NCBI GenBank assembly: GCA_029933125.1
Contig: JAOZOU010000009.1
Location: forward strand, 10,194-74,193
From: a bacterium
GTDB taxonomy: Bacteria; Arandabacterota; Arandabacteria; Arandabacterales; Arandabacteraceae
DNA: 64,000 nt
Direction: 5' to 3'
In this document: positions 20,647 to 51,203 of the stretch, piece after piece
Layout: the number at the start of each line of letters is the position of its first letter
Position numbering within the stretch: the stretch's first letter is position 1
Translations under genes and position numbers: made by a program
The notes under the pieces: generated by a model
The model's database searches: none
Seen by the model: only the letters and a program-made list of their open reading frames with translations
What the model was told of the DNA's origin: nothing

Positions 20647-20865
20647 CCTTCTCCTCCTTCCTATGTACCCAACCCCCATATTATGATAACCACTCTCCAA
20701 GGTCAAAACCAAACCTTCGGGGGAGATTCCCTCGAAGACCACATACCAGACGCGTGAAATGCATCGCTCGAGGGTATGCTGAGATCTCATGTGTGGTTCC
20801 TTCAGCCCAGATGGAACCTTCTACGCCAATTTGAGAATTTTAGAGTGGAGAGAAGGAGGGTGAGA

Positions 20866-26594: not shown

Positions 26595-26834
26595 ACCATG
26601 CACTATTTGGGATGTCAAGCCTGCCAACTCGGATGTGCCCGTCCCAACGCCATAAACAATATTGCACTCCATGCGATTAAGCTTGAAGATATGGCGTTCG
26701 TGAGGTAACATTTGCAGTAGCACACGGTTCCTGCTCGGATCTGCTACGAAAGAGAGCTGGCGGAGGGCAGACTCATCGACTTCTCGCTCGAAGATAAGGA
26801 CACCCGGGAAACCGTCAGGCAATGGATTCAGCCT

Positions 26835-32557: not shown

Positions 32558-34111
32558 TTAACTCTCCGGTGAAAGAATCGATGCTATCGCATTGGGAATG
32601 CGCTCGGCAAGCTCTCCTGCCAGGAAACCATAGTAGCCCTTCTCATCCAGCAGCATGTCTCCAAGGAGACCATGGATGAAAACACCTGCGCAGGCAGCTT
32701 CAAGTGGAACGGTCCCCTGCGCAAGCAATCCAGCGATAATTCCTGTAAGTACATCGCCTGAACCCGCTGTTGCAAGTCCCTGATTACCGGTTGGATTTAT
32801 GAAGACGTAGCCATCGGGTGAGGCTATGAAACTCGGTGCACCTTTGAGAACAAGAATCAAGCCAAGTTCCTCGGCAACTTTGCGTGAGAACTCAATCGGG
32901 CCAGCCAGAATTTCGCTCTTTTCTTTGCCGAGAAGCCTGGCTGCTTCACCTGCATGGGGCGTGAGCACAAGAGGAAAATCAAGGCCTTTGAGAAGCTCGC
33001 TTTGTCCAGCAAATGCATTGATCCCATCCGCATCCAGCACACATGGCTTACCTAGAGTGGGAACGATTTCTCTTATGAGCTCAGCCGTCTCAGCATTCTG
33101 CGACAGCCCAGGACCGATTGCTACCGCATCTGCTCTTGCAACAAAATCGAGAAGCTTGGACTTGGCTCTCTCCGCAAGCGTACCCTCGTGTGTTTCCTCA
33201 ACAGGTAAGGTCATCACCTCAGTTAGTTTGACCTCAAGAATTGTATTGAGACTTTTGGGCACAGCGAGTGTAACAAGACCTGCACCAGCCTTGAGCGCCG
33301 ATATAGAGGTCAGGGTTGCGGCGCCTGTAAAACCAGTTGAGCCGCAAATTGCCGCGACGAATCCACATGTCCACTTGTGAGCCTGAGGAGATCGATCGGG
33401 CAGAGCGGTAACAACATCTGAGCGCGTGAGGATAAAAGTCTTAAGCCCCGCCTTCACGATGACCTCGGGAGGAACACCGATGTCATGAACAATTACTTCA
33501 CCAGTAAGAGACCTTCCAGGGAAGAGCAGGTGTCCTCGTTTGGGTAGCGCCATTGTAACAGTGAGATCTGCTCCAACTGCAAGTGACGCCTCCCCGGTTG
33601 AAGAGTTGACTCCTGATGGAACATCGATGGCAACCTTTATCCCTGGCGCCGCGTTTATCATCTCTATAGCCTGCCTTGCAAGCCCTCGCGGCTCCCCCTC
33701 GAAGCCGGTGCCGAAGATGGCATCCACAACAAGAGCAGCTTTCTGGAGGGAGGCTTCGAGATCGCTCAGATTGTCCTTATCCACTTCCCTGACTTTCACA
33801 CCTGAATTCTGGCATTTCTTCAAATGGAAAGCAGCATCACCTTTAACATCCTTTATCTTCCCAAGAAGATAGGTCTTTACAGCATAGCCCTTACGCTTAA
33901 GAAGGCGCGAGACAACGAAGCCGTCACCACCATTGTTGCCCTTGCCGCACACAACGACAATAGATAATCGCTTCTTTGGCTTGAAACTTCGGATTATCTC
34001 CTCAGCCACACCTCGGCCCGCATTGTCCATGAGTTTGGAACCTGGCACGAAGTCCCGAATTGTCTCTTCATCGATCCTTCGCATCTCTTGAGCAGTTACA
34101 ACAGGGATCAA
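32558..34111 (-). CDS. nnr: bifunctional NAD(P)H-hydrate epimerase / ADP-dependent NAD(P)H-hydrate dehydratase
   Basis: 517 aa; N-terminal YjeF-N domain (VVCGKGNNGGDGFV) and C-terminal carbohydrate-kinase-like dehydratase domain (GSGDVLTGIIAGLLAQG). Confidence 0.85.
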   Translation of the reverse strand: MIPVVTAQEMRRIDEETIRDFVPGSKLMDNAGRGVAEEIIRSFKPKKRLSIVVVCGKGNNGGDGFVVSRLLKRKGYAVKTYLLGKIKDVKGDAAFHLKKCQNSGVKVREVDKDNLSDLEASLQKAALVVDAIFGTGFEGEPRGLARQAIEMINAAPGIKVAIDVPSGVNSSTGEASLAVGADLTVTMALPKRGHLLFPGRSLTGEVIVHDIGVPPEVIVKAGLKTFILTRSDVVTALPDRSPQAHKWTCGFVAAICGSTGFTGAATLTSISALKAGAGLVTLAVPKSLNTILEVKLTEVMTLPVEETHEGTLAERAKSKLLDFVARADAVAIGPGLSQNAETAELIREIVPTLGKPCVLDADGINAFAGQSELLKGLDFPLVLTPHAGEAARLLGKEKSEILAGPIEFSRKVAEELGLILVLKGAPSFIASPDGYVFINPTGNQGLATAGSGDVLTGIIAGLLAQGTVPLEAACAGVFIHGLLGDMLLDEKGYYGFLAGELAERIPNAIASILSPES

Positions 34112-34497
34112 CTTTGCACCTCCGGAAGAAGCAAGACCATCGCCACTGCATAGTCACCATCATGGGAAATACTCAGCAATGCTTGCCTGTCACCGAGAGC
34201 ATCTTTGGCTGCACCTCGAAGATGAAGTACGGGCAAGCCCTTCTCGGTGAGCACAACTTCTATTGTGCGATGAGTGATTTTAGGAGTCTGGTGAGTTGCA
34301 AGAGCTTTGAAAAAAGCCTCTTTTGCTGCGAATCTTGCAGCCAGAGCCTCAGCAGGCACAGGGCGGGCAAGGCTGTAAGCTATTTCGCTCTGGGTGTAGA
34401 TGCGTTCGAGAAAGCGTCTTCCCCAACGATCGAGGAGGCGCCTGATGCGAGGCACTGCAACAAAGTCGATTCCTATGCCCACATGTGCATACGGCAT
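34108..34497 (-). CDS. acpS: holo-[acyl-carrier-protein] synthase
   Basis: AcpS N-terminal motif VGIGIDFVAVPRI and FAAKEAFFKA; start taken at internal Met (track start 34515 also possible). Confidence 0.85.
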   Translation of the reverse strand: MPYAHVGIGIDFVAVPRIRRLLDRWGRRFLERIYTQSEIAYSLARPVPAEALAARFAAKEAFFKALATHQTPKITHRTIEVVLTEKGLPVLHLRGAAKDALGDRQALLSISHDGDYAVAMVLLLPEVQS

Positions 34498-34678
34498 GGC
34501 ATCCTCCGCACGCAATCATATGCAAGTGGGCTTGAGGATTCAAGAAGGATATACGTTGTGATTGACCGTCTCGAAGACGCTCAGGCTGCACCCTGGCAAA
34601 ATACGGTCCTGCTTGCTTAGTTGGGTTGCTTTAGCAAACTTTCTCTCGCAACTCCTTTCACAGGGGCTAGTCTTGGAC

Positions 34679-35263: not shown

Positions 35264-35920
35264 TCATCTTTCCCTTACATTTAGACGGCACCACTCTCGT
35301 TCCCAAGCTCTCACCCTCATCCCGGCTCCCCGCAGAGGAGCAGGCAAGCGCGCATCCTTAGCCAGTGCTTTGACTATATTCTGAGCATCTTTGAAAGTCA
35401 CAAGATTACCTGCAACAACTGCAATTGGAGTGCGATGGCCTGCTATCTTGACTGGACCAGAAATCTTGATTCCATCATGCCCCTTCCTGCCCTTGAATCC
35501 TGAGCCCCTTTCACTCACACCTATTGTTGGCTTCCCAGCTATAACTCCAACATAAGCTGCAAGAGGGATCTCATCCCTTAACGATAACTCTTTCACAAGA
35601 ATCACATCAGGATTGCGTTTGAGCATCTTGAGAACATTCATTATGAGTGGGACAAAAATGGGGTTGCCAACATCCGCGTAGAGCACTCTATCGATCTCAT
35701 CTGTGGCAATTGCTTCTTCAAGCACTTGCATCTTGGGGAAGGATACCAGACAGGCAGCAGCATGAGCCTTGCCAGCCTGGAGAGTTGTCACAACATCGAC
35801 TCCCACAACTCTCCTCATGCGTTTGGGGGCTGGCTTAAACTTTAGGCGCTTTAGCACGCGCTCCCTTAACTGGCTGAATTCTGTGAGTCTTAGCTTTCGC
35901 AGTGCTTCAATCTCAACCAT
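35264..35920 (-). CDS. endonuclease V (Nfi) family homologue with divergent active-site motifs
   Basis: Aligns by eye to EndoV over full length (GVDV, PTIGV, AGHR, RLPAP blocks) but lacks the Y-I-P-G/F-R-E block; start at internal Met 35920 gives 8-bp overlap with upstream radical SAM gene. Confidence 0.5.
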   Translation of the reverse strand: MVEIEALRKLRLTEFSQLRERVLKRLKFKPAPKRMRRVVGVDVVTTLQAGKAHAAACLVSFPKMQVLEEAIATDEIDRVLYADVGNPIFVPLIMNVLKMLKRNPDVILVKELSLRDEIPLAAYVGVIAGKPTIGVSERGSGFKGRKGHDGIKISGPVKIAGHRTPIAVVAGNLVTFKDAQNIVKALAKDARLPAPLRGAGMRVRAWEREWCRLNVRER

Positions 35921-37061
35921 TGCCTTCCTCCAGCTCACGCGACCAACGGCGATAATCTCTAAGATAGAAATCCATTCTCCCACCCCTGCCCATCGCTAAA
36001 TCCTGTATGCCACAGCGCGCATCAGTGCACCTGAGACAAGCACCATCACATGATGCCGCTGGCTCAAACTTCTCCCCTCTCTTCACATAAACCGGTACAT
36101 CAATTCCTTCACAGTTTACAGAGCTCATAAATTCCCTGTTCAACCCAACCGCGACACCATCGACGAGCTCGTATTCCATACAAAGAGCGAAAGTCACACC
36201 AAGCCTGTCACAAATGTTGCGCATCTTATCGAAGATGCGTTTGCGGTAGTCGATCCCTGCATGGAGATAACCATCTATACGCTCGACGTACAAGCGCTCG
36301 AGGTCGTAAACGAATCCTACACCAAAGCGCCGAAATTTTGCAAACACTTCCGTTGCGATCTTCATCGGAATGTCCATAACGCTTCCTATGATGTGCCTCG
36401 CTCCGCAATCAATGCCCCTTGTAATCATCGCCCGAAGTTCATCGTCTGAATCGGTAAGGAAGGGAATAACGGGATCAACTCTTAAGACGACAGGAATGCC
36501 ACTGGAAGCGCAAGCACTCATTGAGCTAAACAGCTCATCGAGAGTTGCTCCACGCGCCATGAGTCGCTTGCGAACCTCCTCCCTCGATGTAGAAACGGAG
36601 AATTGCCCGAAGGAGTGCTTCTGCTTCTTAAGCAATCCTATGACATCCCCCGGAACTTCACACTTGGTTATGAATTCTATTGGGATATTTCGCTCGATGA
36701 ACTCACGAATTACCTTCTCTGAAAGTTGGTAGCGCCTGTTCACCTCCTGAAATGGATCACAAACGGGGGAAAGATAACCGCATGATGCAACTCTGATGGA
36801 ATCGAGCTGATGGGCGACCACTTTGTCAAAATCTTTAAAGACTGTGACTATGCCTTTCTCATTGAAGAGTCTGAAATAGTGTGCTGGAAGAGCTCGTGCA
36901 TAGCAGAAGATGCAAGCCACGGAACAGCCATTGTAAGGATTTATGAGCATCCTCTCGCCCGTGCATTCACGCTTTCCCTTCCACCAGCCGTGGAGCTCCT
37001 TTTTTGAAGAGACGATTATGTGAGGATAGGGTTCTCTGATTACTTCCTGCGCTTCCACCAC
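35913..37061 (-). CDS. radical SAM protein, SplB/DNA-repair-photolyase-like (COG1533-type)
   Basis: 382 aa; CxxxCxxC radical SAM motif in NPYNGCSVACIFCYA, characteristic of spore-photoproduct-lyase-like family. Confidence 0.65.
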   Translation of the reverse strand: MVEAQEVIREPYPHIIVSSKKELHGWWKGKRECTGERMLINPYNGCSVACIFCYARALPAHYFRLFNEKGIVTVFKDFDKVVAHQLDSIRVASCGYLSPVCDPFQEVNRRYQLSEKVIREFIERNIPIEFITKCEVPGDVIGLLKKQKHSFGQFSVSTSREEVRKRLMARGATLDELFSSMSACASSGIPVVLRVDPVIPFLTDSDDELRAMITRGIDCGARHIIGSVMDIPMKIATEVFAKFRRFGVGFVYDLERLYVERIDGYLHAGIDYRKRIFDKMRNICDRLGVTFALCMEYELVDGVAVGLNREFMSSVNCEGIDVPVYVKRGEKFEPAASCDGACLRCTDARCGIQDLAMGRGGRMDFYLRDYRRWSRELEEGNG

Positions 37062-38611
37062 TATCTCCCGAAGACGCTTAGAATCCTTGCACCATCGACT
37101 CTGATTGTGTAGAGCTCTTTACCTCGAGGCTTACCACGTTCCCATCTGAAGTTGGTTATATAGTATTGAGCCGCATTGGGGTTGGCAACAAAGATAAGCC
37201 GTCTGCGGTCGGGAGCTTTGAGAATGTAAGCATTGTATCTACCAGGAGCCGTTGCAGCATGAATGAGGATCTGGTCGGCGCTATCGTTTGCTGCAATCCA
37301 TTCAAGTCCCTGTCTGTATGAAAGTCCCCAGTAGTCAAGTTCAAACTTGCCCTGAGCTCCTCTGACACCATGAGTGAGTGCATTAAAGTAAACATTCTCA
37401 TGGGGATGATTGCGAATTACAAAGAATGTGATTGCTGTGAGATTGATTATTAGCGCTGAAGCTAATAGCCCAATGAGGCTCGTTCGCAACAGGCGCTTCC
37501 CCGATGGTATCCATGTGACAATCCTTTCTATGGTGAAAACCGAAGCAAGTACCATCGCCGGATAGATAAAAAAGGCATGACGCCACGCATCATAGAGCAC
37601 AACTCTCGCAAACATGAGATAGCTTAAGGGAACCCAGAACCATAAGAGGATAACAAGAGCGCTTATCCGGATAAGCCCTGGCTCCTGCCTGCTTGCAATC
37701 TTCCAGGCAAGCAATATGAAGCCAATGGTGCCAAGTGCGATTACGATAGGCGGTGAAGATACCCCTATCCAGACTGGAAGATAATACCAGGGTAGATTTG
37801 TTGACCAGACCTCGCGCCCGAGGAAAAGAACCGGGGCCTCCCAGGGAAAGCTTCGCATTACCTCAAAGCTATGAACAAAATTGCTTAAAGGGTGCCGCCA
37901 AAGAGTGGGCCACATAATAATTGTAAGACCGATCAAAGAACCGAGGTATGTTCCAAGGGATGAAATTGCGCGGCCGAGTGACTGTGACCGATAGTCGCTG
38001 AGTAAGGCGAGAAGCGTTGCGATGAGCGTAATTACCACAATCAAGATTCCAATGATACGGATGTCAAGGAGAAGAGCGCAGATAAAGCCATGCAAAATCG
38101 CTGACCTCAGGCTTCTTTTCTCAAGAAAATGCACAAGGCTGTAGATGCCAACAACAAAGACAACCATGAAGGGAATATCTTTTGTGTTGTAGAAACCATG
38201 AGCAAGGATGCGTGGACTCATGAAAAGCAGAATTGGTGAGAGGAGGGCAATTCGCCAGTCAGCGATGAGGCGCTTTGTAAGTTTATAGAGAAAGATAAGG
38301 CCAATCCACGATATGAGAAAGGTGGCAAGGTGACGCATGAGGTAAACTTTTCTTATATCTCTAAGTGACAGAATCTGCTCAAGCCAGTAGAGAAAGCTCT
38401 CGACCACTGGTCCGTAGTAGCGATGACGATCCCTGAAGAGCTCTTCATCATGGCTTGTCAGGAAGTTGTATACCTTAGCTCCGTACTCACGCTGAACAGG
38501 TTCGTCCCAGGAGATACCATAATCGTCATAGGCAAAAAGACCAATAACAAGTAGTGCCACAAAAAAGATAGGGACAACAGCAGAGGTTTTGGTGACTTGC
38601 ATTGCCGCCAT
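37061..38611 (-). CDS. GT-C fold membrane glycosyltransferase (GT39/ArnT/PMT-like)
   Basis: Multi-pass membrane protein with DE motif in first periplasmic loop (ISWDEPV); start chosen at internal Met to avoid overlap with upstream gene (track 38668). Confidence 0.6.
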   Translation of the reverse strand: MAAMQVTKTSAVVPIFFVALLVIGLFAYDDYGISWDEPVQREYGAKVYNFLTSHDEELFRDRHRYYGPVVESFLYWLEQILSLRDIRKVYLMRHLATFLISWIGLIFLYKLTKRLIADWRIALLSPILLFMSPRILAHGFYNTKDIPFMVVFVVGIYSLVHFLEKRSLRSAILHGFICALLLDIRIIGILIVVITLIATLLALLSDYRSQSLGRAISSLGTYLGSLIGLTIIMWPTLWRHPLSNFVHSFEVMRSFPWEAPVLFLGREVWSTNLPWYYLPVWIGVSSPPIVIALGTIGFILLAWKIASRQEPGLIRISALVILLWFWVPLSYLMFARVVLYDAWRHAFFIYPAMVLASVFTIERIVTWIPSGKRLLRTSLIGLLASALIINLTAITFFVIRNHPHENVYFNALTHGVRGAQGKFELDYWGLSYRQGLEWIAANDSADQILIHAATAPGRYNAYILKAPDRRRLIFVANPNAAQYYITNFRWERGKPRGKELYTIRVDGARILSVFGR

Positions 38612-38621
38612 CCGATTCTTG

Positions 38622-40055
38622 TCAGCTTCCTTGAATGGTATGGCCCTGTCTAAGGAGCGGCTCAACAACTTCAGGAGATAGCCTGATCATGCGATAAATC
38701 TGGACTCGGTGCATACGCTGCTTCCTCGGATTGATCCACTCCCAAACTATTTCACCGTCCGGAGTAACCTCAAATGCACGGCCTCGATCGCCCTCACAGA
38801 TGAGGGTGTTGCCATTGGCGAGGCGCTGGGCAGAGCCTTTCTCATAGGAGTAGAAACTCTCAGGTGGATCCCCAACATACTGCCATACGATCTCATAGGT
38901 GACCGGATCAAGCTCGATGACTCTTGAATAGCCTCTAACTGGTCCATTGTCAAAGATGAGGATGTGCCCATTGGCTAGCATTGTCGGATGGTGTGGCCAC
39001 TGGAGCTCGCCTTCTCCCCAAACCCAAAGAATCTCACGTGTATCCTTATCAAGAATTGCAATTTGATTTACATTTCGAAAGCATATGAGAAGATTCCCTG
39101 GCTTGAATCTTCTATCCTTAGCCAGAGCATTCTCTGGAAGCACCGTGACCGTATTCATGTGAAAATAATCGTAGATGTTCTTACCACTGCGTTTATAGAC
39201 CTCGAGTTTGCCAGGGACCGTTGCCTTGAAGGAATCAATACCCCCACGTCCTGATAGACTATCAATCAGATTGTCAAGGAAGGATCGTGTATCGAAGGCT
39301 TGCTTTATCTCATCAAGATGGTCATATGTTGACCAGCGACCAATCTCCTTACCATCGAGGGTGAGGTGAAGAATAGCTGCAAATCTGACCTGAAGTCCTC
39401 GATAGTTCTTGATGTCGCGTACAATTGTGTAAATTGTGCTATCCGGAGCAAGTGATGCCTCATGATGGGCAATGGCATCGACCTTCCAGATAAGATTTGA
39501 ATTCCAATCGAGACGCTTGATGTCCCTCATTCTGCTTACAACAATGACATCGCCATTGGGTAGCATGAGCGCAGGTGCCCATACCCAGTGACGCTTACGC
39601 TTCTCAGGGTAGTACCACCTGTGAACCATTTTCCCATACATGTCCATAAGATAGACCTCTGGCGAGATGGCTGAGCAAAAAATCTGATAACCGCGCCATG
39701 AGCGGAGGCTGTCATAGACAGTAACTCCCGAAGGGCCGCTCACTTTCTGGGGAGTCATCGTTGTATAAGGGATTGAGCGAAGACGTTCGAGCTTTCGCTT
39801 CAGATTCTGATCATTGTTAGTCTCACGAGGTGTGTTGCGGGCTAGGGATAGGATAATCACAGCTGCCAGACCCGATGCAACTGCAAGTGAGCCTATGAGC
39901 AGTCGTCTTCTCATTCTGCCTGGAGCCTCTCCTTTCAGGCGAATCTCGCTGAGATTTTCACTGATAACTTCGACAACTTCATAGCCAACTTCATCAAGAA
40001 GTTTCTGGCGAACTTTACCAAAATCATACCATTTGGAGCTAGCTGGTTTAAACAT
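38622..40055 (-). CDS. arylsulfotransferase (ASST)-like beta-propeller protein with N-terminal membrane anchor
   Basis: 477 aa; TM anchor RRRLLIGSLAVASGLAAVIILSLA; His-containing motifs HHPTMLANGHILIFDNG and AQRLANGNTLICEG reminiscent of ASST family; call is tentative. Confidence 0.45.
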   Translation of the reverse strand: MFKPASSKWYDFGKVRQKLLDEVGYEVVEVISENLSEIRLKGEAPGRMRRRLLIGSLAVASGLAAVIILSLARNTPRETNNDQNLKRKLERLRSIPYTTMTPQKVSGPSGVTVYDSLRSWRGYQIFCSAISPEVYLMDMYGKMVHRWYYPEKRKRHWVWAPALMLPNGDVIVVSRMRDIKRLDWNSNLIWKVDAIAHHEASLAPDSTIYTIVRDIKNYRGLQVRFAAILHLTLDGKEIGRWSTYDHLDEIKQAFDTRSFLDNLIDSLSGRGGIDSFKATVPGKLEVYKRSGKNIYDYFHMNTVTVLPENALAKDRRFKPGNLLICFRNVNQIAILDKDTREILWVWGEGELQWPHHPTMLANGHILIFDNGPVRGYSRVIELDPVTYEIVWQYVGDPPESFYSYEKGSAQRLANGNTLICEGDRGRAFEVTPDGEIVWEWINPRKQRMHRVQIYRMIRLSPEVVEPLLRQGHTIQGS

Positions 40056-40218
40056 TTCATTAGCACGGGGCTGTGAAGCAGCCGAATGCTTAGGATCTTA
40101 GTTCTTGTGAGCCAATTGCTATGGTCGGGATCTTTATAACATCTGAGGTGGTAAGTAAATAGGTGGTTACGAGTGCGAGGGGTTATGGGATGGCTTCGGT
40201 TAAGGGTACCAAGGGGGC

Positions 40219-40252
40219 GCAGGATGCCAAGGAGCGCAGGATGCCAAGGAGC
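40219..40252. repeat. perfect 17-bp tandem duplication GCAGGATGCCAAGGAGC x2
   Basis: Read directly at 40219-40235 and 40236-40252 in intergenic region between two reverse-strand genes. Confidence 0.6.
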
Positions 40253-40275
40253 ATGCGACCTCTAGGGTGGTGGGG

Positions 40276-42027
40276 TTATGGAGTGTGAGGGTATGAGGTG
40301 CCTGAGCAGTCTCTTGTGTCCTTGATATCGTCACGAGGTTTAAGTTCGAAGATCACATAGGAATATCCTATGTGATCCACGGGTTCATAGTTCTCTCTAA
40401 GCCACTTGTAGCGGTCGGGATCAAAGATACCAACAAGGTTGTTTACACTAACGACTATCTTGCCCGAATCAGGAAACTCAGGATGTAAGTACTTCTCGCT
40501 GAAGCGCCTGCGGACGCGTTTCATCCACCATTCTCCCTTCTCATAGTATGCATCTGGATGTTCTCGCAGATAGCGTTGGAGAGCATTTCTGTCCTGCCCC
40601 CAATCTATATTCGAATCAGCAAGCACTTTGTATGCCTTCTTGCGGTCCCAGACGAGTTCATTGAAGTAAGGGATGTAGTGAGGGAAATAGGAAAGAACCG
40701 AAACTGTCTGATAACAAATAAGAACGCCAAGCGCTGCAGTAAGCTTTGCTTGCCTCGGCAAGCCCTGCTTGAGCAAGCTTCCGCAGAAGACGTGCAGCAG
40801 GGGCAAAACGATCAGGAAGTGCCGAATGCCTATCTGGAGTTTGAAGAAGAAATTGAAATAGATGGCGAAGAAGACCATGGGAGCGACGAGGAAGAGCTCA
40901 TCTTCGAGAAAGCGATAGCGTTTTCGCCTTTTTGTATAGGCGACCATGGCGATTATGGCGATGGCCTGGGTAGCAAGGGGAACCTTAAAGAGATACGCAA
41001 AGAAATAGTAACCCTTGAAGCCACCAATTTCTTTGAGTCGCCCGAGAAGATACATCTTACCGAAGCCTTTGCCGGTTTCGGTCCGATAGATTCCCCAATC
41101 TATTCCTTCGAGATAGGGATATGGCAAAGGGAGAGGAAGTCTTGCAAGTTCTCCGAGGCGAGAGCGTAGGCTTTTGAAGGCGTCACTTCGCAGGGCATAG
41201 TCGTCGAGAGAGCTAAACGTACGGTTGAAGAGAAAAGCTGCATTTATGATAAGGATGCTTACAGCAATGAAAACAACTGTATAGAGCAAGGTGCGAAGCA
41301 AACCCTTTCGCATGGCTTTAAGATCTGCCTGCCTTGCCTGTCTCAGAATCTCAGGACTGTAGCGAATCGCAAGGATGATAGCCTCAAGGGGATAGAGAAG
41401 GATGCAAACATATTTAGAGATCTGACCCATCCCCAGAGCAACTGCTGCAAGGATGCCCCTTCGTGGTGAAGGATGTTTGGTGAATCTCCAGAGTGTCCAT
41501 AGGGAAACAAGTACCATACCTGCTGCATAGACATCTGTAGTTATGAGGCGTGCATGGGCAATCATATTGGGGCTTAAGGCAAAGAGTGTGAGTGAGAGGA
41601 TTGCTCCCTTTGTTCCGTAAAGTTCTCTACTCCAGGTGAAAACAACGAGAGCCACGATGACGCTAAGGATAATTGTTACATATCTGCCCGTGGGAACGGA
41701 TTTTAGAAACGCCTGGTATCTTGCTGCCGCCTTGAGCTCACCTATTTCGGCCGGCAATGCGTTTAGGGCTGTTATGGGCATCGTTCCATCAACGAAACGA
41801 GAGGAATTGCCCGATAGGATGCTGGCGCCATAGCGAAAGTGCCAGGGTTCATCCTGGGTAAGGGACTTATGGCGTATGCTAAGAACCTCAAGAGCAACCA
41901 TAAAGGATAAGAGACCAATTACGACCAGGATTGTTGATGTGGGAATGCGGTCTGCGAACTTTGCGTCGGAGAGGTCGCTGTTGTTCATAACAATATGAAG
42001 GTAAGCCAAAGCAAGGACATCTTTCAA
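40276..42027 (-). CDS. GT-C fold membrane glycosyltransferase (GT39/ArnT/PMT-like), second copy
   Basis: 583 aa multi-pass membrane protein; DE motif in first loop (LTQDEPWHF); start may be at a downstream Met. Confidence 0.6.
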   Translation of the reverse strand: MKDVLALAYLHIVMNNSDLSDAKFADRIPTSTILVVIGLLSFMVALEVLSIRHKSLTQDEPWHFRYGASILSGNSSRFVDGTMPITALNALPAEIGELKAAARYQAFLKSVPTGRYVTIILSVIVALVVFTWSRELYGTKGAILSLTLFALSPNMIAHARLITTDVYAAGMVLVSLWTLWRFTKHPSPRRGILAAVALGMGQISKYVCILLYPLEAIILAIRYSPEILRQARQADLKAMRKGLLRTLLYTVVFIAVSILIINAAFLFNRTFSSLDDYALRSDAFKSLRSRLGELARLPLPLPYPYLEGIDWGIYRTETGKGFGKMYLLGRLKEIGGFKGYYFFAYLFKVPLATQAIAIIAMVAYTKRRKRYRFLEDELFLVAPMVFFAIYFNFFFKLQIGIRHFLIVLPLLHVFCGSLLKQGLPRQAKLTAALGVLICYQTVSVLSYFPHYIPYFNELVWDRKKAYKVLADSNIDWGQDRNALQRYLREHPDAYYEKGEWWMKRVRRRFSEKYLHPEFPDSGKIVVSVNNLVGIFDPDRYKWLRENYEPVDHIGYSYVIFELKPRDDIKDTRDCSGTSYPHTP

Positions 42028-42179
42028 TCGCTTCCTTATACGGTCTCTACGAAAATCCCCCTCTCCGCTCTTCCCTTTGCTTCATCTCTGGCCCCCTACT
42101 GGCAGGATTGACCCATCCCAAGAGCTATGTTAGATTGGGAATTGGAGAGGATCAGTGTTTATACTCGAAGGGGGAAGTT

Positions 42180-43541
42180 TTGCGCAGATGGTTCTGGATT
42201 CTCGTTGTACTGGCGATTCTAACCTGCGCACGTGAGCCCAAGCCCAATGTGGTCATCGTTACGATCGATACACTTCGTGCCGATCATCTGAGCTGCTATG
42301 GTTATTCCAAGCCTACGAGCCCACGCATAGATGACTTCGCAGGCAGGGCTATCCTCTTTGAGAAAGCATTCTCACAGGCACCCCAAACGCTTCCATCGCA
42401 TGCGTCCATCTTTACAGGCCTGCATCCCCGCCACCACAAATCAATCACGCATGAAAGTCCTCTTGCCGATGATGTAACGACCCTCGCTGAGATTCTCAAA
42501 CATAAGGATTACGAGACTGCTGCCTTCATTAGCAGTCATGCCCTCGACAGCAAGTACAATCTGACTCAGGGATTCAATACCTATTGGGAGATTCAAAGGG
42601 AATACAGTGTCCCGGAACGCCAGAATGCACACCACTGGGGCAAGGATCTTACCACCGATGCTGTTCTTCGCTGGCTCAAGGAGCACCACAGCGACCGCTT
42701 CTTCCTCTGGGTACACTGGTTTCATCCTCATCGGCCTTACAATCCCCCAGAAGATTATCGAACGAGATTTGCTGGTCCCTATGAGGGCGATGCTAACAGT
42801 TCGCCCGATTTTATTATCACTGTGTGGCAAAACAAGATTGAACTCGCTGATGAAGATGTGGCTTACCTGAGAGGATGTTATGATGGGGAGGTAGCCTTCA
42901 CTGATTATCAGGTAGGAAGATTACTTGATGAGCTCACCTCACTCGGGCTCATGAACAATACAATAATCATTCTAACATCCGATCATGGTGAGATCCTTTA
43001 TGAGCATGAATATTACTTCGGACACGATATCGGACTTTATGATGAGTGTCTTTGGGTTCCTCTCATCTTCTATGGACCCGGCATTCTGGATGAGCATAAA
43101 CGTATAGATAAGCCTGTTGAGACAATCGACATCATGCCAACTGTGCTGGATCTCCTTGAGATAGCAAAGCCGCAAGGCATGGATGGTAAGAGCTTGCTTC
43201 CCCTCATTGCAGGTGGAAAGTTTGAGGGGTGCACCTATTTCTTCTCAGAGACATTTCCCTTCCCCGAGAAATCCTTGCCACGTCATGCAGTAAGAACGAG
43301 AACCGCTAAACTGATCTGGCGCGAGACAGCGACCGGTGGAATTGAGAAGCATTTCTTTGATCTTGTAAAGGATCCAGAGGAAACTGAGAACGTCTATGAC
43401 GTGAGCAATCCTGCCTGTGCACGCCTCGATTCAGTGCTTGGTGAATGGATCAAACCGGAGGGTCTTCATCCCGCACGCATCCCGAGTGCCCGCGAGTCGG
43501 GAAGGTGGCGCATCCTCAAAAGCCTCGGCTACGTCAACTAA
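42180..43541 (+). CDS. sulfatase-fold (alkaline phosphatase superfamily) enzyme with Thr at nucleophile position
   Basis: N-terminal metal-binding motif VTIDTLRADHLSCYGY; nucleophile motif reads T-L-P-S-H instead of C-x-P-x-R; TTG 42180 (MRRWFWILVVLAILTCA anchor) preferred over track TTG 42108. Confidence 0.65.
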   Translation: MRRWFWILVVLAILTCAREPKPNVVIVTIDTLRADHLSCYGYSKPTSPRIDDFAGRAILFEKAFSQAPQTLPSHASIFTGLHPRHHKSITHESPLADDVTTLAEILKHKDYETAAFISSHALDSKYNLTQGFNTYWEIQREYSVPERQNAHHWGKDLTTDAVLRWLKEHHSDRFFLWVHWFHPHRPYNPPEDYRTRFAGPYEGDANSSPDFIITVWQNKIELADEDVAYLRGCYDGEVAFTDYQVGRLLDELTSLGLMNNTIIILTSDHGEILYEHEYYFGHDIGLYDECLWVPLIFYGPGILDEHKRIDKPVETIDIMPTVLDLLEIAKPQGMDGKSLLPLIAGGKFEGCTYFFSETFPFPEKSLPRHAVRTRTAKLIWRETATGGIEKHFFDLVKDPEETENVYDVSNPACARLDSVLGEWIKPEGLHPARIPSARESGRWRILKSLGYVN

Positions 43542-43542
43542 C

Positions 43543-43732
43543 GGGGTCGGAGCTAAAAACCTCCAAATCACCCATTTTGGGGTCGGAGCTAAAAAAACGC
43601 AAATCACCCAAAATGGGGTCGGAGCTAAAAAAATGCAAATTGGCTGGAATTGCCTCTTCCACAAGGCCCATGGCTCCTTAACTCATTTACACACAAAGGG
43701 ATACGCGTGTGCAGATTTTTAGCTCCGACCCC
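43543..43732. repeat. repeat element locus 2: three direct 36-bp-unit copies plus inverted terminal copy (MITE-like arrangement)
   Basis: Core GGGGTCGGAGCTAAAAA at 43543-43559, 43579-43597, 43615-43633; inverted copy 43716-43732; the inverted copy overlaps the last codons of the DUF89 gene. Confidence 0.8.
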
Positions 43733-44591
43733 GGGTGAGGAGGTTGGAGGCGGTGGGGACGCCAAGACGTTCAGCAACTATGGGGCATTTGGCTTTGAGG
43801 ATAAAGAAGATTTGGCGCTCAGCGTCATCGAGAGTCTCATAATTTGCCTGCCCCTTGGATATCACCACACCAGCCTTAAAGAAAACATCCTTAAACTGGT
43901 CACTACATTCGCCGAGGATAATGCCGAGACTATCTGAGCCTGTCTCAATTATCTTTATCGGCTCACCAATTCCTGCTCTGATTGCATCTTCGTAAGTTGC
44001 GTCATTGAGAATGCCTCGGCTTTTCACACTCACATAGACATCCTTTCCACGACGCACGAACTCATCGAGCAGAAATCGGTCGAAGACGATCTCACCGGCA
44101 TTGTCACTTATGAGCAATATGTTCCTGGAGGCGATAACAGCTTCTAAGAGCTCCTCAGATTCATCAACCACAAGCTCCCCACTTATTGTTTCCCTGAGAG
44201 TTTTCTCAAGATCAAATTCGCTGCCGACACCAAAATCTATAATGTTACCCGCCGCAGCAAGCTTAACACAGAGCTTTATTCTGCCTACCTCATCAAGTTG
44301 CAAGAATCTCTTTTGAATTTCAGGCTTGATATGCTCGTACATCGCAAGAGCTTCGACAGTGGTTTCCCACTTTAGCTTCTCAAATGGATCAACATTGCTG
44401 AGCAAGTGATCACCTGAGCGAATTGCCCTTGTCGCAAGAATCGCCGGGGGCACACCGTGGTCGAGATCCATTAAGGCTTCCATCGCCTTACGAGCAATCT
44501 CAACCTGGCTATTCTCATCAAGTCCAGCAATCCTTGCTGTCCGTATAGCCTGTCTGACTGAACACGGAATGCACTCAGGGGAAGATTTCAC
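43719..44591 (-). CDS. DUF89/ARMT1-like damage-control phosphatase family protein
   Basis: 290 aa; signature ISKGQANYE and N-terminal Cys pair (PECIPCS). Confidence 0.7.
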   Translation of the reverse strand: MKSSPECIPCSVRQAIRTARIAGLDENSQVEIARKAMEALMDLDHGVPPAILATRAIRSGDHLLSNVDPFEKLKWETTVEALAMYEHIKPEIQKRFLQLDEVGRIKLCVKLAAAGNIIDFGVGSEFDLEKTLRETISGELVVDESEELLEAVIASRNILLISDNAGEIVFDRFLLDEFVRRGKDVYVSVKSRGILNDATYEDAIRAGIGEPIKIIETGSDSLGIILGECSDQFKDVFFKAGVVISKGQANYETLDDAERQIFFILKAKCPIVAERLGVPTASNLLTRGRS

Positions 44592-44601
44592 TTCTTGCTC
44601 C

Positions 44602-45885
44602 TCACGTTTTTTGTTGCTTCTTACGAGCCGCAGGGAAGAGAACGTTGTTTAGAATCAGCCGATAGCCAGGGGAATTCTTATGAAGTGCAAGATCCGTCGG
44701 TGGATCTCCAATCATATGCTGATAATCCTCGGGGTCATGGCCCCCATAAAATGTGAAGGTGCCACGTCCATAGGTTCCATGAAGATACTTGACCTCATCT
44801 TGCCCTTCGGTCTCAGCCAGAATCGTGACTGTTTTCTTTATCAGGTGCTTCTCGTATCCAGTTGTCTGCCCCATGAAACCCTTTATGACCGAGACATGAT
44901 TCTGCGTCAGCATAGTTGGAATGGGATCGTGTTTGGCTGAGAATTCAAAAAGTGTGAAGTAATCATTTGCCTGACCTCGCCTTGCCGCACGCGGGCTGGT
45001 ATCAATATCGGAATATTCGTAGACAAACGGATTGGGTATAACTTTAAAACCCGTGAAGCAAAGTGTTTTGGAATAGTCGAGTTTCTCCTGATAGTTGGGA
45101 TCTGGTGGATCACCATCAAAAACACTATCAACGATATCGTCATTTTCTGCAGCGAGAGCGATATCATAGGAATCGGTTGCTGAACACATCGCAAAAAGGA
45201 AGCCGCCCCTCGCCACATAATCTTTTATCCTCCTTGCAACAGCCTTCTTGAGTTCTGAAACTTTGCTAAAGCCCAGCTTATGGGCAAGCGCCTCAGATGT
45301 AGCCACCCGTTTCTTATACCAATCTGCATTACGATAGCTCGCATAGAATTTCCCATATTGACCCGTGAAATCCTCATGATGAAGGTGCAGCCAATCATAT
45401 TCGTCTAGTTTGCCAGCAAGTACTTCTTCATCATAGACGATGTCATAAGGTATCTCAGCATAGTCGAGTGCAAGTCTTACAGCATCATCCCATGGCTCAC
45501 GATCTGGTGGGACATAGACGGCAATAGCAGGAGCTTTCTCAAGAAGCACGACTTCCATATTCTCCTCTTCAATTGTTCTATATATCTTGGCAGCGTCACC
45601 TTCTGATATCACACTGTAACTAACGCCCATTAGGGTTGCCTTCCTCGCCATTACATCCCTTGCATCCACCATGAAGGATCCACCGCGATAGTTGAGCAAC
45701 CACTCAACGTTGAAGCCTTGCTCGAGACACCAATAGGCAAGCCCATAGGCTTTGAGGTGATCTGTCTGATTGAGATCCATATAGATAAGGATACGATCGG
45801 CTACCGCTGTCGCTGCAAGACCGAGGACAATGAAACAGACAAGAAGGACTTTAAGAATCTGATGATTGACTTGATCTAAGGCCAT
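44602..45885 (-). CDS. hypothetical exported protein (possible GATase1-like fold)
   Basis: 427 aa; N-terminal hydrophobic segment; no firm family; motif GGFLFAMCSATDSYD; start overlaps upstream TPR gene by 35 bp. Confidence 0.5.
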   Translation of the reverse strand: MALDQVNHQILKVLLVCFIVLGLAATAVADRILIYMDLNQTDHLKAYGLAYWCLEQGFNVEWLLNYRGGSFMVDARDVMARKATLMGVSYSVISEGDAAKIYRTIEEENMEVVLLEKAPAIAVYVPPDREPWDDAVRLALDYAEIPYDIVYDEEVLAGKLDEYDWLHLHHEDFTGQYGKFYASYRNADWYKKRVATSEALAHKLGFSKVSELKKAVARRIKDYVARGGFLFAMCSATDSYDIALAAENDDIVDSVFDGDPPDPNYQEKLDYSKTLCFTGFKVIPNPFVYEYSDIDTSPRAARRGQANDYFTLFEFSAKHDPIPTMLTQNHVSVIKGFMGQTTGYEKHLIKKTVTILAETEGQDEVKYLHGTYGRGTFTFYGGHDPEDYQHMIGDPPTDLALHKNSPGYRLILNNVLFPAARKKQQKT

Positions 45886-47674
45886 CTATCTTCCTCCTCG
45901 CCTCACCTGCCGCAACACTTTCGGGAAAGCGCAGAATAAGATCCTCATATGTCTCCTTCGCCTTTTCAATCTCATCAAGCTCAACATAGATGTCAGCAAT
46001 TGCCTCAAGTGCAGCTGGTGCTATATGACTTGCGAGGCTGTCAGCTATTACTCTGTAGATCGCGATCGCCAGGTTGGGGTTACCAGCCCTACGATAGATC
46101 TCAGCTAGTCTTCTCAGACTTTCAACCTTGATAGGTTTCAATTGAATCTTGCTAAGACTAAGATATCTATCCTTTGCCTCCTCGATGCGTCCCCGCCTCT
46201 CGAGAAGATAAGCCTGCGCGAGTTGTCCAAGCTCCTGGGGGTACTTCTCGCCAGCCTTGCTTGCCCTTATCAGCATCAGCCTTTCAATGCAGTCGTTGGC
46301 AAGATCCTCCTGGGGATATTGCCTCAAAGCGACATTGTAATAGGATACTGCTTCATCAAACTTTCCCTCATACAAACTTATCTCGCCAAGATTGTAGAAT
46401 GCCTCCTGAGCAAGTGCGCCTTGCCATTCAATCTCAACAAGATCATATGTCTCGAAAGCTTTCTCAAGATCACCAAGTTTTACAAGGCAGTCCCCTTTGA
46501 TATTGACAGCCCTCGCAAGCAACTCAGGTGATCTGGTATTGCTTATAACCTTATCAGCCTCCTTAACTGCATTTTGAAAATTGTCACTGTTGTAATAGAT
46601 ATCAGCGCGAGCAAGCACAGCATCCCATGCCCACTTGGTTCCCACAAAACGGTCTACCAGATCTTGATACGTCTTCAAGGCGTCCTCAACATCATTGCCA
46701 AGGTACTCACATTGCGCTTTCTTGAGAAGAACATCAGCCAGATTTAGGCCGGATTGCTTAAGCTTTGCAACCAGTTCATATGCCTTAGCACACTCCTCAA
46801 AACAGCCTCTCCTCGTTGCCTCTCGAGCAAACAGGGGCAGACTGCGCGCTAACTCGCGTTCGTTGCCAGCGCCGGCTTGGATCTCCTCAAGCGCAGCCTT
46901 GCAGTTGCCATCCAGAAGATAAAGTTGCCAGAGTACTCGACTGACGACGTCTGCAAATTCCTTGCGAGATTTTTCAGCAACAAGAGCACTTATGACCTCA
47001 GCCCTGGCTTCATCATCACTGGCAAGATCAAGAATCTTCTGAGCAAACCTTTGAGGTACCCCCTTCTCACCTCCTCGGTTCTCGCTTGCAAATCGCAGCA
47101 GATACTCATGGACTGCATCACCAACCCTGCCTGCGTCGATATAAAGACGAATAGCTTCAGGCCCGAAAAGGGTGGAATCCCCGGTCGCCTTCCGAGCTCT
47201 TGTGATAATATCTATCACACCTTCCCTATCCCCGATCTCCGCAAGCACATTCATTGCAAGGGTGTAAGTCCATTCCTCATCGGGTGCAGTCGAGATTATT
47301 TTCTCAAGAATCTCCATCCCCCTTTTCGTGTTACCCTTGAGGAAGCTTACAAGTGCAAGTTTTGCTTTCAGCGCATTCTCATTGGGGTGATTCTTAAGAA
47401 AAGAGGAGAGTATCTTTTCAGCCTTTGAATAGTTGTGTGTCTCTATCAGAACATCTGCGTAGACTCTGACAACCGTAGCATCATCACTTGCTTTCCTGTA
47501 AAGTGCGTCCAGCTCGGCGAGAGCCTTATCAATCTTGCCCTCAGAAAGGTACCTTCGCGCAGTTGCTAAGCTGCGATCCCTTGTCTGCGGTGTAACATCA
47601 GCCGCCAGGCAAGTCCCAACAGCAAGCAAGACAAAAGCAAATGTAAGAGTGGCACAAAACAATTTCTTCATCAC
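45851..47674 (-). CDS. TPR-repeat protein with signal peptide
   Basis: 607 aa; signal peptide MMKKLFCATLTFAFVLLAVGTCLA; multiple TPR-like helical repeats; 4-bp overlap with upstream gene. Confidence 0.7.
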   Translation of the reverse strand: MMKKLFCATLTFAFVLLAVGTCLAADVTPQTRDRSLATARRYLSEGKIDKALAELDALYRKASDDATVVRVYADVLIETHNYSKAEKILSSFLKNHPNENALKAKLALVSFLKGNTKRGMEILEKIISTAPDEEWTYTLAMNVLAEIGDREGVIDIITRARKATGDSTLFGPEAIRLYIDAGRVGDAVHEYLLRFASENRGGEKGVPQRFAQKILDLASDDEARAEVISALVAEKSRKEFADVVSRVLWQLYLLDGNCKAALEEIQAGAGNERELARSLPLFAREATRRGCFEECAKAYELVAKLKQSGLNLADVLLKKAQCEYLGNDVEDALKTYQDLVDRFVGTKWAWDAVLARADIYYNSDNFQNAVKEADKVISNTRSPELLARAVNIKGDCLVKLGDLEKAFETYDLVEIEWQGALAQEAFYNLGEISLYEGKFDEAVSYYNVALRQYPQEDLANDCIERLMLIRASKAGEKYPQELGQLAQAYLLERRGRIEEAKDRYLSLSKIQLKPIKVESLRRLAEIYRRAGNPNLAIAIYRVIADSLASHIAPAALEAIADIYVELDEIEKAKETYEDLILRFPESVAAGEARRKIDGLRSSQSSDS

Positions 47675-50991: not shown

Positions 50992-51203
50992 CGGCTACCT
51001 CTGTTGTTATATCTGGCTGCTACCGCTGTTGGCCAGCCCCTTGGGCGTGTCTATTACCAGGCCTTATAGATACCTCTCTAGCATATGTCCATTGGTCATT
51101 GAGTGCTTCATCGGTGCCACACAGGCGCACCTTAAAATTAGTGGTCTCGCATGAAATCTGTGCCCGTGCTTCACCAAACTCCTCTAAGATGCACCTAACC
51201 TAT

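What the first reader, a model, noticed from the sequence alone, without database searches (positions are those of the whole stretch)
37061..43541. Envelope-modification cluster: two GT-C glycosyltransferases, an ASST-like propeller protein and a sulfatase-fold enzyme
Two PMT/ArnT-like membrane glycosyltransferases with first-loop DE motifs flank an arylsulfotransferase-like membrane-anchored protein, and a sulfatase-fold enzyme is encoded divergently. Together they suggest a locus that glycosylates and possibly sulfates or phospho-modifies a lipid or protein acceptor, perhaps the nearby T9SS cargo proteins.
Basis: inference. Interest (0 to 1): 0.5.

Follow-up and report, generated by a model that had tools for sequence, protein, structure and literature searches.

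The report
Membrane glycosyltransferases with sulfotransferase-like partner
Four neighbouring genes for enzymes that act on the outer face of the cell membrane are really there, but the "sulfatase" lacks the residue true sulfatases need, and what the group modifies remains unknown.

Summary
Two PMT_2 (GT-C) glycosyltransferases flank a membrane-anchored ASST-like beta-propeller on the minus strand. A sulfatase-fold gene is divergent. All four pass Pfam's curated cut-offs.

New details:
- The "sulfatase" has T-L-P-S-H where sulfatases have C/S-x-P-x-R, so it cannot form formylglycine. It is more likely a phosphoester enzyme.
- The link between the genes is real but loose. The closest relative has the same gene order. 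Unrelated Phycisphaerae contigs carry tight operons of the three families. One ASST–sulfatase-fold fusion protein exists. However, only 17 of 79 ASST loci have either partner adjacent, and most distant homologues of the first GT-C stand alone.
- The cluster lies in a housekeeping block collinear with a Ca. Eisenbacteria contig.
- I found no link to T9SS cargo. The window holds no sulfate-activation, FGE or sugar-donor genes.

Best reading, at about 0.4 confidence: a tailoring module for an unknown envelope glycoconjugate, acting outside the cytoplasm. Interest is moderate.

The parts
42108..43541 (+). Enzyme with a sulfatase fold (alkaline-phosphatase superfamily) and a Thr nucleophile. It has a signal or lipid anchor. 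The start is probably near 42180. It is transcribed divergently from GT-C#1.
   Evidence: Pfam Sulfatase 1.2e-54, SGSH_C and Phosphodiest. NCBIfam scores are far below every equivalog cut-off. In the alignment to solved sulfatases, T94 falls on the formylglycine Cys/Ser and H98 on the Arg. T94, D292 and H293 are invariant in 33 homologues.
42387..42401 (+). Codons for T94-L-P-S-H98, which replace the sulfatase C/S-x-P-x-R formylglycine motif.
   Evidence: All but a few of the sulfatase-fold genes found in ASST loci have Thr at this position. The exceptions are the four true C-x-P/A-S-R sulfatases of L062 and two other genes, in L023 and L025.
40276..42027 (-). GT-C#1, a polytopic PMT_2 / 'GT39-like' glycosyltransferase with a C-terminal periplasmic domain. 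The start is probably at 41988.
   Evidence: PMT_2 3.8e-13 and PMT 3.3e-05. Sources name the homologues 'glycosyltransferase family 39' or 'ArnT-like'. The AlphaFold model has pLDDT 86.3 and pTM 0.88. Foldseek top matches are ArnT 5f15, Pmt4 and AglB.
41848..41853 (-). Codons for D59-E60 of GT-C#1, the acidic motif of the first external loop.
   Evidence: Invariant in alignment A4. The motif lies between model helices 30-51 and 60-71.
38622..40055 (-). ASST-like six-bladed beta-propeller with one N-terminal membrane anchor. The start is probably M58, at about 39884.
38991..38993 (-). Codon for H355, the counterpart of the sulfo-histidine His436 of E. coli ASST.
   Evidence: The hhalign register, extended without gaps from the shared FDNG motif, places H355 on precursor His463, which is mature His436. 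The same histidine aligns with the H of WQHD in Cpz4.
37061..38668 (-). GT-C#2, a second and only distantly related PMT_2 glycosyltransferase. The start is possibly the ATG at 38611.
   Evidence: PMT_2 2.8e-08. It shares 28% identity with GT-C#1 over only 76 residues. Orthologues lie next to ASST arrays in L020 and L092, and next to the radical SAM gene in L089.
38501..38506 (-). Codons for D55-E56 of GT-C#2 (WDEP motif).
   Evidence: Kept in all six full-length orthologues that cover this region.
35264..37061 (-). Downstream genes for a radical SAM protein (PA0069/Rv2578c-like) and endonuclease V. Both are probably co-transcribed with GT-C#2 but are not assigned to the module.
   Evidence: Pfam and NCBIfam. 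The radical SAM start shares one base with the GT-C#2 stop. The same order, PMT_2 / radical SAM / EndoV / ACPS / YjeF, is seen in L089 and in the window.

Best explanation
The four genes encode enzymes that all work on the outer face of the cytoplasmic membrane. Most likely they tailor the same, still unknown, envelope glycoconjugate.

Proposed roles:
- The two GT-C enzymes transfer sugars from polyprenyl-phosphate-linked donors to an acceptor in the periplasm. The family and fold are shown. The donor and acceptor are inferred.
- The membrane-tethered ASST-like propeller is a PAPS-independent group-transfer enzyme of the Cpz4/ASST type. It would work through a covalent histidine intermediate at H355. 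Most likely it moves a sulfuryl group from a small aryl-sulfate donor onto a hydroxyl, possibly a sugar hydroxyl as Cpz4 does. The fold and the conserved residues are shown. The chemistry and substrates are inferred.
- The divergently encoded enzyme has a sulfatase fold but a Thr nucleophile, so it is not a formylglycine sulfatase. Most likely it adds, trims or exchanges a phosphoester substituent. The absence of the formylglycine motif is shown. The phosphoester chemistry is inferred from what Thr-nucleophile members of the superfamily do.

The ASST gene is an accessory, swappable part of a conserved GT-C / GT-C block.
For: - Family and fold.
- Catalytic positions are conserved.
- All four products have N-terminal anchors or are polytopic.
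- Gene packing is tight on one strand, with a divergent intergenic region of about 80-190 bp.
- The closest relative, L086, has the identical order.
- The trio is kept in L003, L091 and L092.
- Independent tight operons exist in Phycisphaerae, in the orders sulfatase-fold / GT-C / sulfatase-fold / ASST and sulfatase-fold / ASST / GT-C-TPR / sulfatase-fold.
- Sulfatase and PMT_2 are the two commonest Pfam families among 73 immediate neighbours of ASST genes, with 6 each.
- All but a few partner sulfatase-fold genes share the Thr variant.
- P0401 fuses an ASST domain to a Thr-type sulfatase-fold domain, and P0462 fuses ASST to a PhoD-like phosphatase.
- According to a review, Cpz4 preferentially sulfates a sugar hydroxyl rather than a phenol: PMC13426309.
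- According to the SulfAtlas authors, Thr-containing PF00884 members cannot be regarded as sulfatases: PMC5066984.
Against: - Adjacency is a minority pattern. Only 17 of 79 ASST loci have either partner within 500 bp, and the density near the ASST gene is only 1.6-2.6 times that further out.
- ASST genes are heavily expanded into paralogues and are often found next to unrelated genes.
- More distant GT-C#1 homologues mostly stand alone.
- In L087, L088 and L089 the gene after GT-C#1 is an unrelated polytopic membrane protein instead of an ASST gene.
- The window holds no gene for sulfate activation, for an aryl-sulfate donor, for a polyprenyl-phosphate sugar synthase, or for a candidate acceptor.
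- The cluster lies inside a housekeeping synteny block, so some of the conservation reflects shared descent.
- No enzyme of this clade has been assayed.
Confidence: 0.4

Rival explanations
1. The genes are neighbours by descent only. Each gene has its own unrelated job: two general envelope GT-Cs, a periplasmic transferase and a periplasmic esterase. The clustering reflects a lineage-specific synteny block, not a shared pathway.
For: The block GT-C#1 ... GT-C#2 / radical SAM / EndoV / ACPS / YjeF is collinear with Eisenbacteria contig L089 and mixes envelope, DNA-repair and housekeeping genes. The ASST position is occupied by other genes in L087-L089. Most ASST paralogues and most distant GT-C#1 homologues lack the partners.
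Against: Operons of the same three families recur in Phycisphaerae with only 31-33% ASST identity and with different GT-C subtypes. An ASST–sulfatase-fold fusion protein exists. The partner sulfatase-fold genes almost all share the unusual Thr variant.
Confidence: 0.3
2. The ASST-like protein and the Thr-type esterase form a periplasmic pair that processes small organic sulfate or phosphate esters, for scavenging or detoxification in sediment. The GT-Cs are unrelated, or merely glycosylate these exported enzymes.
For: The known ASSTs act on small phenolic sulfates in the periplasm, and their physiological role is unclear (PMC13426309). Strong paralogue expansion and tandem arrays are typical of substrate-diversified enzymes. 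Fusions to sulfatase-fold and PhoD-like esterases exist. Neighbouring regions in relatives contain further sulfatase-fold and PhoD-like genes.
Against: The ASST-like and sulfatase-fold proteins are membrane-tethered rather than freely periplasmic. GT-C genes are the other top neighbour family and are interleaved within the operons. No transporter or regulator typical of scavenging loci is adjacent.
Confidence: 0.2
3. The locus glycosylates and sulfates nearby T9SS cargo proteins or lipid A.
For: The organism has T9SS-type C-terminal domains. Three of 73 ASST neighbours carry Por_Secre_tail. M10 or M6 peptidases with an FlgD_ig domain lie inside the cluster in relatives. The Phycisphaerae GT-Cs carry TPR domains, which suggests protein acceptors.
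Against: The two window cargo candidates are more than 18 kb away with unrelated genes in between. The window GT-Cs lack TPR domains. The sulfatase-fold enzyme lacks the multi-helix membrane domain of lipid A phosphoethanolamine transferases, and it scores far below their cut-offs.
Confidence: 0.07

Closest known systems
Cpz4, the ASST-type sulfotransferase of caprazamycin biosynthesis (Streptomyces; PDB 9kf4/9kf6)
   Different: Cpz4 is a soluble enzyme in an antibiotic gene cluster whose donor is made by dedicated enzymes. The window protein is membrane-anchored and extracytoplasmic, shares 21% identity or less, belongs to a very large environmental clade, and has no donor-synthesis genes nearby.
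E. coli aryl-sulfate sulfotransferase AssT (PDB 3ELQ)
   Different: The window protein has no beta-sandwich dimerisation domain and no adjacent dsbL/dsbI genes. Thr501 is not conserved. Profile-to-sequence alignment covers only the C-terminal 70 residues.
ArnT (GT83) and protein O-mannosyltransferases (GT39, PMT/Pmt4)
   Same: PMT_2 membership, the GT-C fold, an acidic DE motif in the first external loop, and presumably a polyprenyl-phosphate sugar donor.
   Different: TM-scores are only about 0.45-0.55. There are no MIR domains. A distinct, conserved C-terminal domain is present (YFNELVWDR...DSNIDWGQ). There is no sequence-level PDB match. No arn or dolichol/undecaprenyl-phosphate sugar synthase genes are nearby.
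Family S1 formylglycine sulfatases and phosphonate monoester hydrolases
   Same: PF00884 fold. The best sequence matches are sulfatases and phosphonate monoester hydrolases (E 1e-32). The metal ligands D54 and D292-H293 are conserved.
   Different: The formylglycine Cys/Ser is replaced by Thr, its stabilising Arg by His, and the downstream Lys by His306. No FGE or anSME gene is present in the window.
Thr-nucleophile alkaline-phosphatase superfamily members: NPP phosphodiesterases, and LtaS, EptA and OpgB phospho-alcohol transferases
   Same: Thr nucleophile. The T-x-P-x-H...TGL motif resembles the NPP signature (my recollection, not tested here). There is a Phosphodiest Pfam hit of 36.7 bits. 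The protein is extracytoplasmic. The pairing with a GT-C recalls LtaS with YfhO in lipoteichoic acid synthesis (established knowledge).
   Different: It has a single anchor instead of a five-helix membrane domain. HMM scores are far below the EptA, LtaS and CptA cut-offs. Overall, the sequence is closer to sulfatases.

Membership tests
GT-C glycosyltransferases (PMT_2; GT39/GT83-like) | Profile match above the curated cut-off | tested here: met
   PMT_2 scores 50.4 bits (GT-C#1) and 34.6 bits (GT-C#2) against a cut-off of 26.1. PMT scores 24.0 against 22.7 for GT-C#1.
GT-C glycosyltransferases (PMT_2; GT39/GT83-like) | Polytopic membrane fold resembling solved GT-C enzymes | tested here: met
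   GT-C#1 model: pLDDT 86.3, pTM 0.88, and all-helical until about residue 460. Foldseek top hits are ArnT, Pmt4, AglB, OST and ALG9, all with probability 1.0. GT-C#2 was not modelled. It has eight or more hydrophobic segments.
GT-C glycosyltransferases (PMT_2; GT39/GT83-like) | Conserved acidic (D-E) motif in the first extracytoplasmic loop | tested here: met
   D59 and E60 are invariant in 35 sequences. WDEP is kept in the GT-C#2 orthologues that cover this region.
GT-C glycosyltransferases (PMT_2; GT39/GT83-like) | MIR domains of eukaryotic-type GT39 PMTs, or arn-operon context for GT83 ArnT | tested here: not met
   There is no MIR hit. No arn, UDP-sugar or polyprenyl-phosphate sugar synthase genes occur in the window. 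The genes are therefore filed as GT-C / PMT_2, not as a PMT or ArnT orthologue.
PAPS-independent aryl sulfotransferases (ASST; PF05935/PF14269) | Profile match above the curated cut-off | tested here: met
   PF14269 scores 88.2 bits (cut-off 27) and PF05935 scores 43.8 bits (cut-off 24.2).
PAPS-independent aryl sulfotransferases (ASST; PF05935/PF14269) | Six-bladed beta-propeller that is specifically similar to solved ASSTs | tested here: met
PAPS-independent aryl sulfotransferases (ASST; PF05935/PF14269) | Catalytic histidine (His436 of E. coli ASST) that becomes sulfurylated | tested here: met
   H355 is invariant. It aligns to His436 when the hhalign register is extended without gaps, and it aligns to the H of WQHD in Cpz4.
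PAPS-independent aryl sulfotransferases (ASST; PF05935/PF14269) | Sulfuryl-binding residues His252, His356, Asn358, Arg374 and Thr501 | tested here: inconclusive
   The motifs and their spacing match by inspection: H198 in HHE, H299/N301 in FHMN, and R327 in FRN. All are invariant. No objective alignment covers this region. Thr501 aligns with a non-conserved Lys.
PAPS-independent aryl sulfotransferases (ASST; PF05935/PF14269) | Sulfuryl transfer from aryl sulfates | not testable with these tools
   This needs an enzyme assay.
Formylglycine (S1) sulfatases | PF00884 fold and metal-binding Asp and Asp-His/Asn residues | tested here: met
   Sulfatase scores 186 bits. D54 is at least 90% conserved, and D292 and H293 are invariant.
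Formylglycine (S1) sulfatases | C/S-x-P-x-R motif that is converted to formylglycine | tested here: not met
   T94-L-P-S-H98 aligns on this motif. T94 is invariant in 33 homologues. According to SulfAtlas, Thr cannot give formylglycine (PMC5066984).
Formylglycine (S1) sulfatases | A maturation enzyme (FGE or anSME) is available | tested here: not met
   No FGE-sulfatase or radical SAM/SPASM protein occurs in the window. The adjacent radical SAM protein is PA0069/Rv2578c-like and has no SPASM domain. The rest of the genome was not seen.
Phospho-alcohol transferases (LtaS, EptA/MCR, OpgB) | Thr nucleophile in a PF00884 domain | tested here: met
   T94.
Phospho-alcohol transferases (LtaS, EptA/MCR, OpgB) | N-terminal multi-helix membrane domain, and an HMM score above the family cut-off | tested here: not met
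   There is one weak hydrophobic segment. The EptA match scores 41.8 bits against 561, and the LtaS match 21.2 against 970.

The most novel reading that the evidence does not exclude
The membrane-tethered ASST-like propellers form a very large, uncharacterised clade in uncultivated Eisenbacteria, Zixibacteria, Planctomycetota, Acidobacteriota and other phyla. They may be the catalytic core of a PAPS-independent system that works outside the cytoplasm. That system would put sulfate, or possibly phosphate, esters onto envelope glycans installed by GT-C enzymes. The Thr-type 'pseudo-sulfatases' would act as the partner that supplies, exchanges or removes the ester group. If so, this would be a route for decorating the bacterial surface with charged esters without cytoplasmic activated donors.
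Probability: 0.2. Interest if true: 0.7.

Novelty: new variant of a known kind. Interest (0 to 1): 0.38.

Why it matters
Sulfation outside the cytoplasm is a puzzle, because the usual donor, PAPS, does not leave the cell. ASST-type enzymes avoid this problem, yet their natural roles are mostly unknown.

This clade is large, membrane-anchored and well conserved: 14,726 clusters at 50% identity match at E ≤ 0.001. It repeatedly sits next to GT-C glycosyltransferases and to a Thr-type variant of the sulfatase fold, and it is sometimes fused to that variant. That gives a concrete and testable handle on what these enzymes do in uncultivated sediment and soil bacteria.

There is also a practical point. 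The thousands of genes in this subfamily that are annotated "arylsulfatase A-like" should not be counted as sulfatases in metagenomic surveys of the sulfur cycle.

Tried and rejected
- Exact look-ups of the window's ASST and sulfatase-fold proteins found no contig on record, so the source genome could not be named. The cluster-member look-up gave no names either.
- PDB sequence searches with both GT-Cs found nothing meaningful.
- A direct profile alignment of the ASST family to E. coli ASST was too weak to map the whole active site. I therefore relied on the alignment register plus motif inspection.
- Promoter and terminator scans gave counts at the level of shuffled sequence, so they say nothing about operon structure.
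- Literature searches for PF14269, for Cpz4, and for ASST in these phyla found no description of this gene combination.
- I considered the adjacent radical SAM protein as an anaerobic sulfatase-maturing enzyme. I rejected this because it has no SPASM domain, its best match is the PA0069/Rv2578c family, and it travels with endonuclease V.
- I considered the long ORFs in L058 and L063 as ASST–sulfatase fusions. I rejected this because the two parts are in different reading frames in high-GC DNA. They are adjacent genes, not fusions.
- I considered a link to T9SS cargo and rejected it for lack of proximity.

Full report
**1. What is there**

The region holds four long ORFs. Three lie on the minus strand:
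- GT-C#1 at 40276-42027
- an ASST-like gene at 38622-40055
- GT-C#2 at 37061-38668

A sulfatase-fold gene at 42108-43541 is transcribed divergently from GT-C#1.

The minus-strand run continues without a break. A radical SAM gene at 35913-37061 starts on the last base of the GT-C#2 stop codon. An endonuclease V gene follows at 35264-35983.

Homologues indicate shorter true starts for three of the genes: about 39884 for ASST, 41988 for GT-C#1 and 42180 for the sulfatase-fold gene. For GT-C#2, the ATG at 38611 is a possible start, judged from the sequence alone. The window contains no further copies of these families.

**2. Family assignments hold**

*Pfam and annotation.* Pfam places both polytopic proteins in PMT_2 above the curated cut-off. 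The middle protein falls in Arylsulfotran_2 and Arylsulfotrans, and the divergent one in Sulfatase. NCBIfam has no specific model for any of them. Sources name the GT-C#1 homologues 'glycosyltransferase family 39' or 'ArnT-like'.

*DE motifs.* D59-E60 of GT-C#1 is invariant in 35 homologues. In the AlphaFold model (pLDDT 86.3) it lies between the first transmembrane helix and the first loop helix. The best Foldseek matches for that model are ArnT, Pmt4 and AglB/OST. GT-C#2 has WDEP at residues 54-57, and its full-length orthologues that cover this region keep it.

*Relationship of the two GT-Cs.* They share only a 76-residue core at 28% identity, so they are not recent duplicates.

**3. The ASST-like protein**

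*Family and architecture.* The family is well conserved, at about 55% identity among the listed relatives. It has an N-terminal anchor, and some members have a lipoprotein-like Cys instead. It is also very large: 14,726 clusters at 50% identity match at E ≤ 0.001, and 2,685 at E ≤ 1e-30.

Foldseek and a PDB profile search also put Cpz4 first.

*Catalytic residues.* I fetched E. coli CFT073 AssT and confirmed that the published numbering equals precursor numbering minus 27. The published active-site residues come from the review PMC13426309. The hhalign register, extended without gaps from the shared FDNG motif, puts the invariant H355 on the sulfo-histidine His436. By motif and spacing:
- H198 (HHE) corresponds to His252
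- H299 and N301 (FHMN) correspond to His356 and Asn358
- R327 (FRN) corresponds to Arg374

These last matches rest on inspection only. According to the same review, Cpz4 prefers a sugar hydroxyl as acceptor.

**4. The 'sulfatase' is not a sulfatase**

- Alignment to solved sulfatases places T94-L-P-S-H98 on the C/S-x-P-x-R motif.
- T94, D292 and H293 are invariant in 33 homologues. P96, S97 and H98 are at least 90% conserved. The Lys that follows the DHGE segment in sulfatases is His306 here.
- The SulfAtlas authors state that Thr cannot give formylglycine, and that such PF00884 members cannot be regarded as sulfatases (PMC5066984).
- All but a few of the sulfatase-fold genes found in ASST loci carry Thr at this position. 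The exceptions are the four genuine C-x-P/A-S-R sulfatases of a Fidelibacterota locus and two genes in L023 and L025.

Thr nucleophiles in this superfamily are characteristic of phosphoryl-transfer enzymes such as NPP, PafA, LtaS and EptA. This is established knowledge, not something tested here. The window protein has only one weak anchor segment, and it scores far below the EptA and LtaS cut-offs.

**5. Is the clustering meaningful?**

*Evidence for a functional link:*
- The nearest relative, L086 (74-81% identity), has the same order: ARMT1 / sulfatase-fold(-) / GT-C#1 / ASST.
- L003 and L091 have sulfatase-fold / GT-C#1 / ASST.
- L020 and L092 have GT-C#2 / ASST×3 / GT-C×2-3. In L092 a sulfatase-fold gene follows.
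- Two Phycisphaerae contigs, with ASST identity of only 31-33%, carry tight co-directional operons of the same three families. Their GT-Cs are PMT_2-TPR fusions.
- Among 73 immediate neighbours of close ASST homologues, Sulfatase and PMT_2 are the top Pfam families, with 6 each.
- P0401 fuses an ASST domain to a Thr-type sulfatase-fold domain. P0462 fuses ASST to a PhoD-like phosphatase.

*Evidence against:*
- Of 79 ASST-centred loci from different species, 11 have an adjacent sulfatase-fold gene, 8 have an adjacent GT-C, and 2 have both. The density near the ASST gene is only 1.6 to 2.6 times that further out.
- ASST genes are strongly expanded and often sit among unrelated genes.
- Of 80 metagenomic GT-C#1 homologues, only the closest ones and L142 have the partners.
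- The window block GT-C#1 ... GT-C#2 / radical SAM / EndoV / ACPS / YjeF is collinear with Eisenbacteria contig L089. There, a different polytopic membrane protein and an M10 peptidase occupy the ASST position.

The ASST gene is therefore a variable insert in a conserved GT-C block.

**6. Context**

The window looks like a relative of Ca. Eisenbacteria in the FCB group.

The T9SS-type cargo candidates are at 12122-16336 and 16691-19153, more than 18 kb away.

The window holds no sulfate-activation, FGE/anSME or polyprenyl-phosphate sugar synthase genes, and no obvious acceptor gene.

**7. Verdict**

The most likely function is a tailoring module for an envelope glycoconjugate that acts outside the cytoplasm. 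Two GT-Cs would add sugars. A Cpz4-like histidine-dependent transferase would add a sulfuryl-type ester. A Thr-type esterase or transferase would handle a phosphoester. My confidence in this is about 0.4.

The main rival is that the genes are independent neighbours (0.3). Periplasmic processing of small esters comes next (0.2). The T9SS-cargo idea is unlikely (0.07).

Each gene is a new member of a known family. The recurring combination, the membrane-anchored Cpz4-like clade and the Thr-type sulfatase-fold partner together make this a new variant of a known kind. I rate its interest as moderate.

Noticed in passing
P0401 and P0462 (representatives of the ASST family): These are fusion proteins. 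P0401 joins an ASST domain to a Thr-type sulfatase-fold domain. P0462 joins an ASST domain, DUF7800 and a PhoD-like phosphatase. Several other representatives (P0368, P0373, P0382, P0376) are tandem ASST-ASST duplications.
   Followed up: partly
window 35264-37061 (-), with 34108-34515 and 32558-34111: A PA0069/Rv2578c-like radical SAM gene starts on the last base of the GT-C#2 stop codon. Endonuclease V, ACPS and YjeF (NAD(P)HX repair) follow. The same order occurs in Eisenbacteria contig L089, and the radical SAM / EndoV pair also lies near sulfatase-fold / ASST genes in L008 and L013. This may be a DNA-repair pair that travels with the envelope genes.
   Followed up: partly
L087, L088, L089 and L006 (genes directly after GT-C#1 orthologues): Relatives carry an uncharacterised polytopic membrane protein of 515-552 residues in or beside the ASST position. 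It has no Pfam hit, or only a faint DUF6077 hit. The same regions also contain DUF6077 and YfhO-like membrane proteins, PhoD-like phosphatases and extra Thr-type sulfatase-fold genes. Together these form a larger island of enzymes that act outside the cytoplasm.
   Followed up: partly
L029, L030, L020/L092, L068; several contigs each from GCA_975969375.1 and from the MAGs Meg22_46_Bin_89 and CSMAG_463: ASST-like genes occur as tandem arrays of 3-4 copies. At least 3-6 paralogues are present in a single metagenome-assembled genome.
   Followed up: partly
L001:8560-9567 (-): A radical SAM/SPASM protein and a GT4 glycosyltransferase lie divergently next to an ASST / PMT_2 pair. The SPASM protein could be a maturase. 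This was not examined.
   Followed up: no
window 43719-44591 (-): An ARMT1-like damage-control phosphatase lies next to the sulfatase-fold gene. The same neighbour relationship is kept in L086 and L088.
   Followed up: no
window 44602-51872 (-): This is a run of genes: a 427-aa anchored protein with no Pfam hit, a 607-aa TPR protein, a 1106-aa protein with no Pfam hit, and a DUF4159 protein. It resembles a Bat/aerotolerance-type envelope operon. This was not tested.
   Followed up: no
window 23388-27017 (-) and 19405-20790 (-): A 1209-aa CHAT-protease/TPR protein and a bacterial serpin are encoded here.
   Followed up: no
window 12122-16336 (-), 16691-19153 (+), 22155-23360 (+): These are large BNR/SBBP and FG-GAP repeat proteins. 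Two of them have T9SS C-terminal sorting domains, one of which is weak.
   Followed up: partly
ASST family alignment A1 (window protein residues 88-101): A conserved stalk motif, RL..LRS(V/I)PYT, directly follows the membrane anchor. P96 and Y97 are invariant. C325 is invariant and C420 is at least 90% conserved, which may indicate a periplasmic disulfide. The function of these features is unknown.
   Followed up: no
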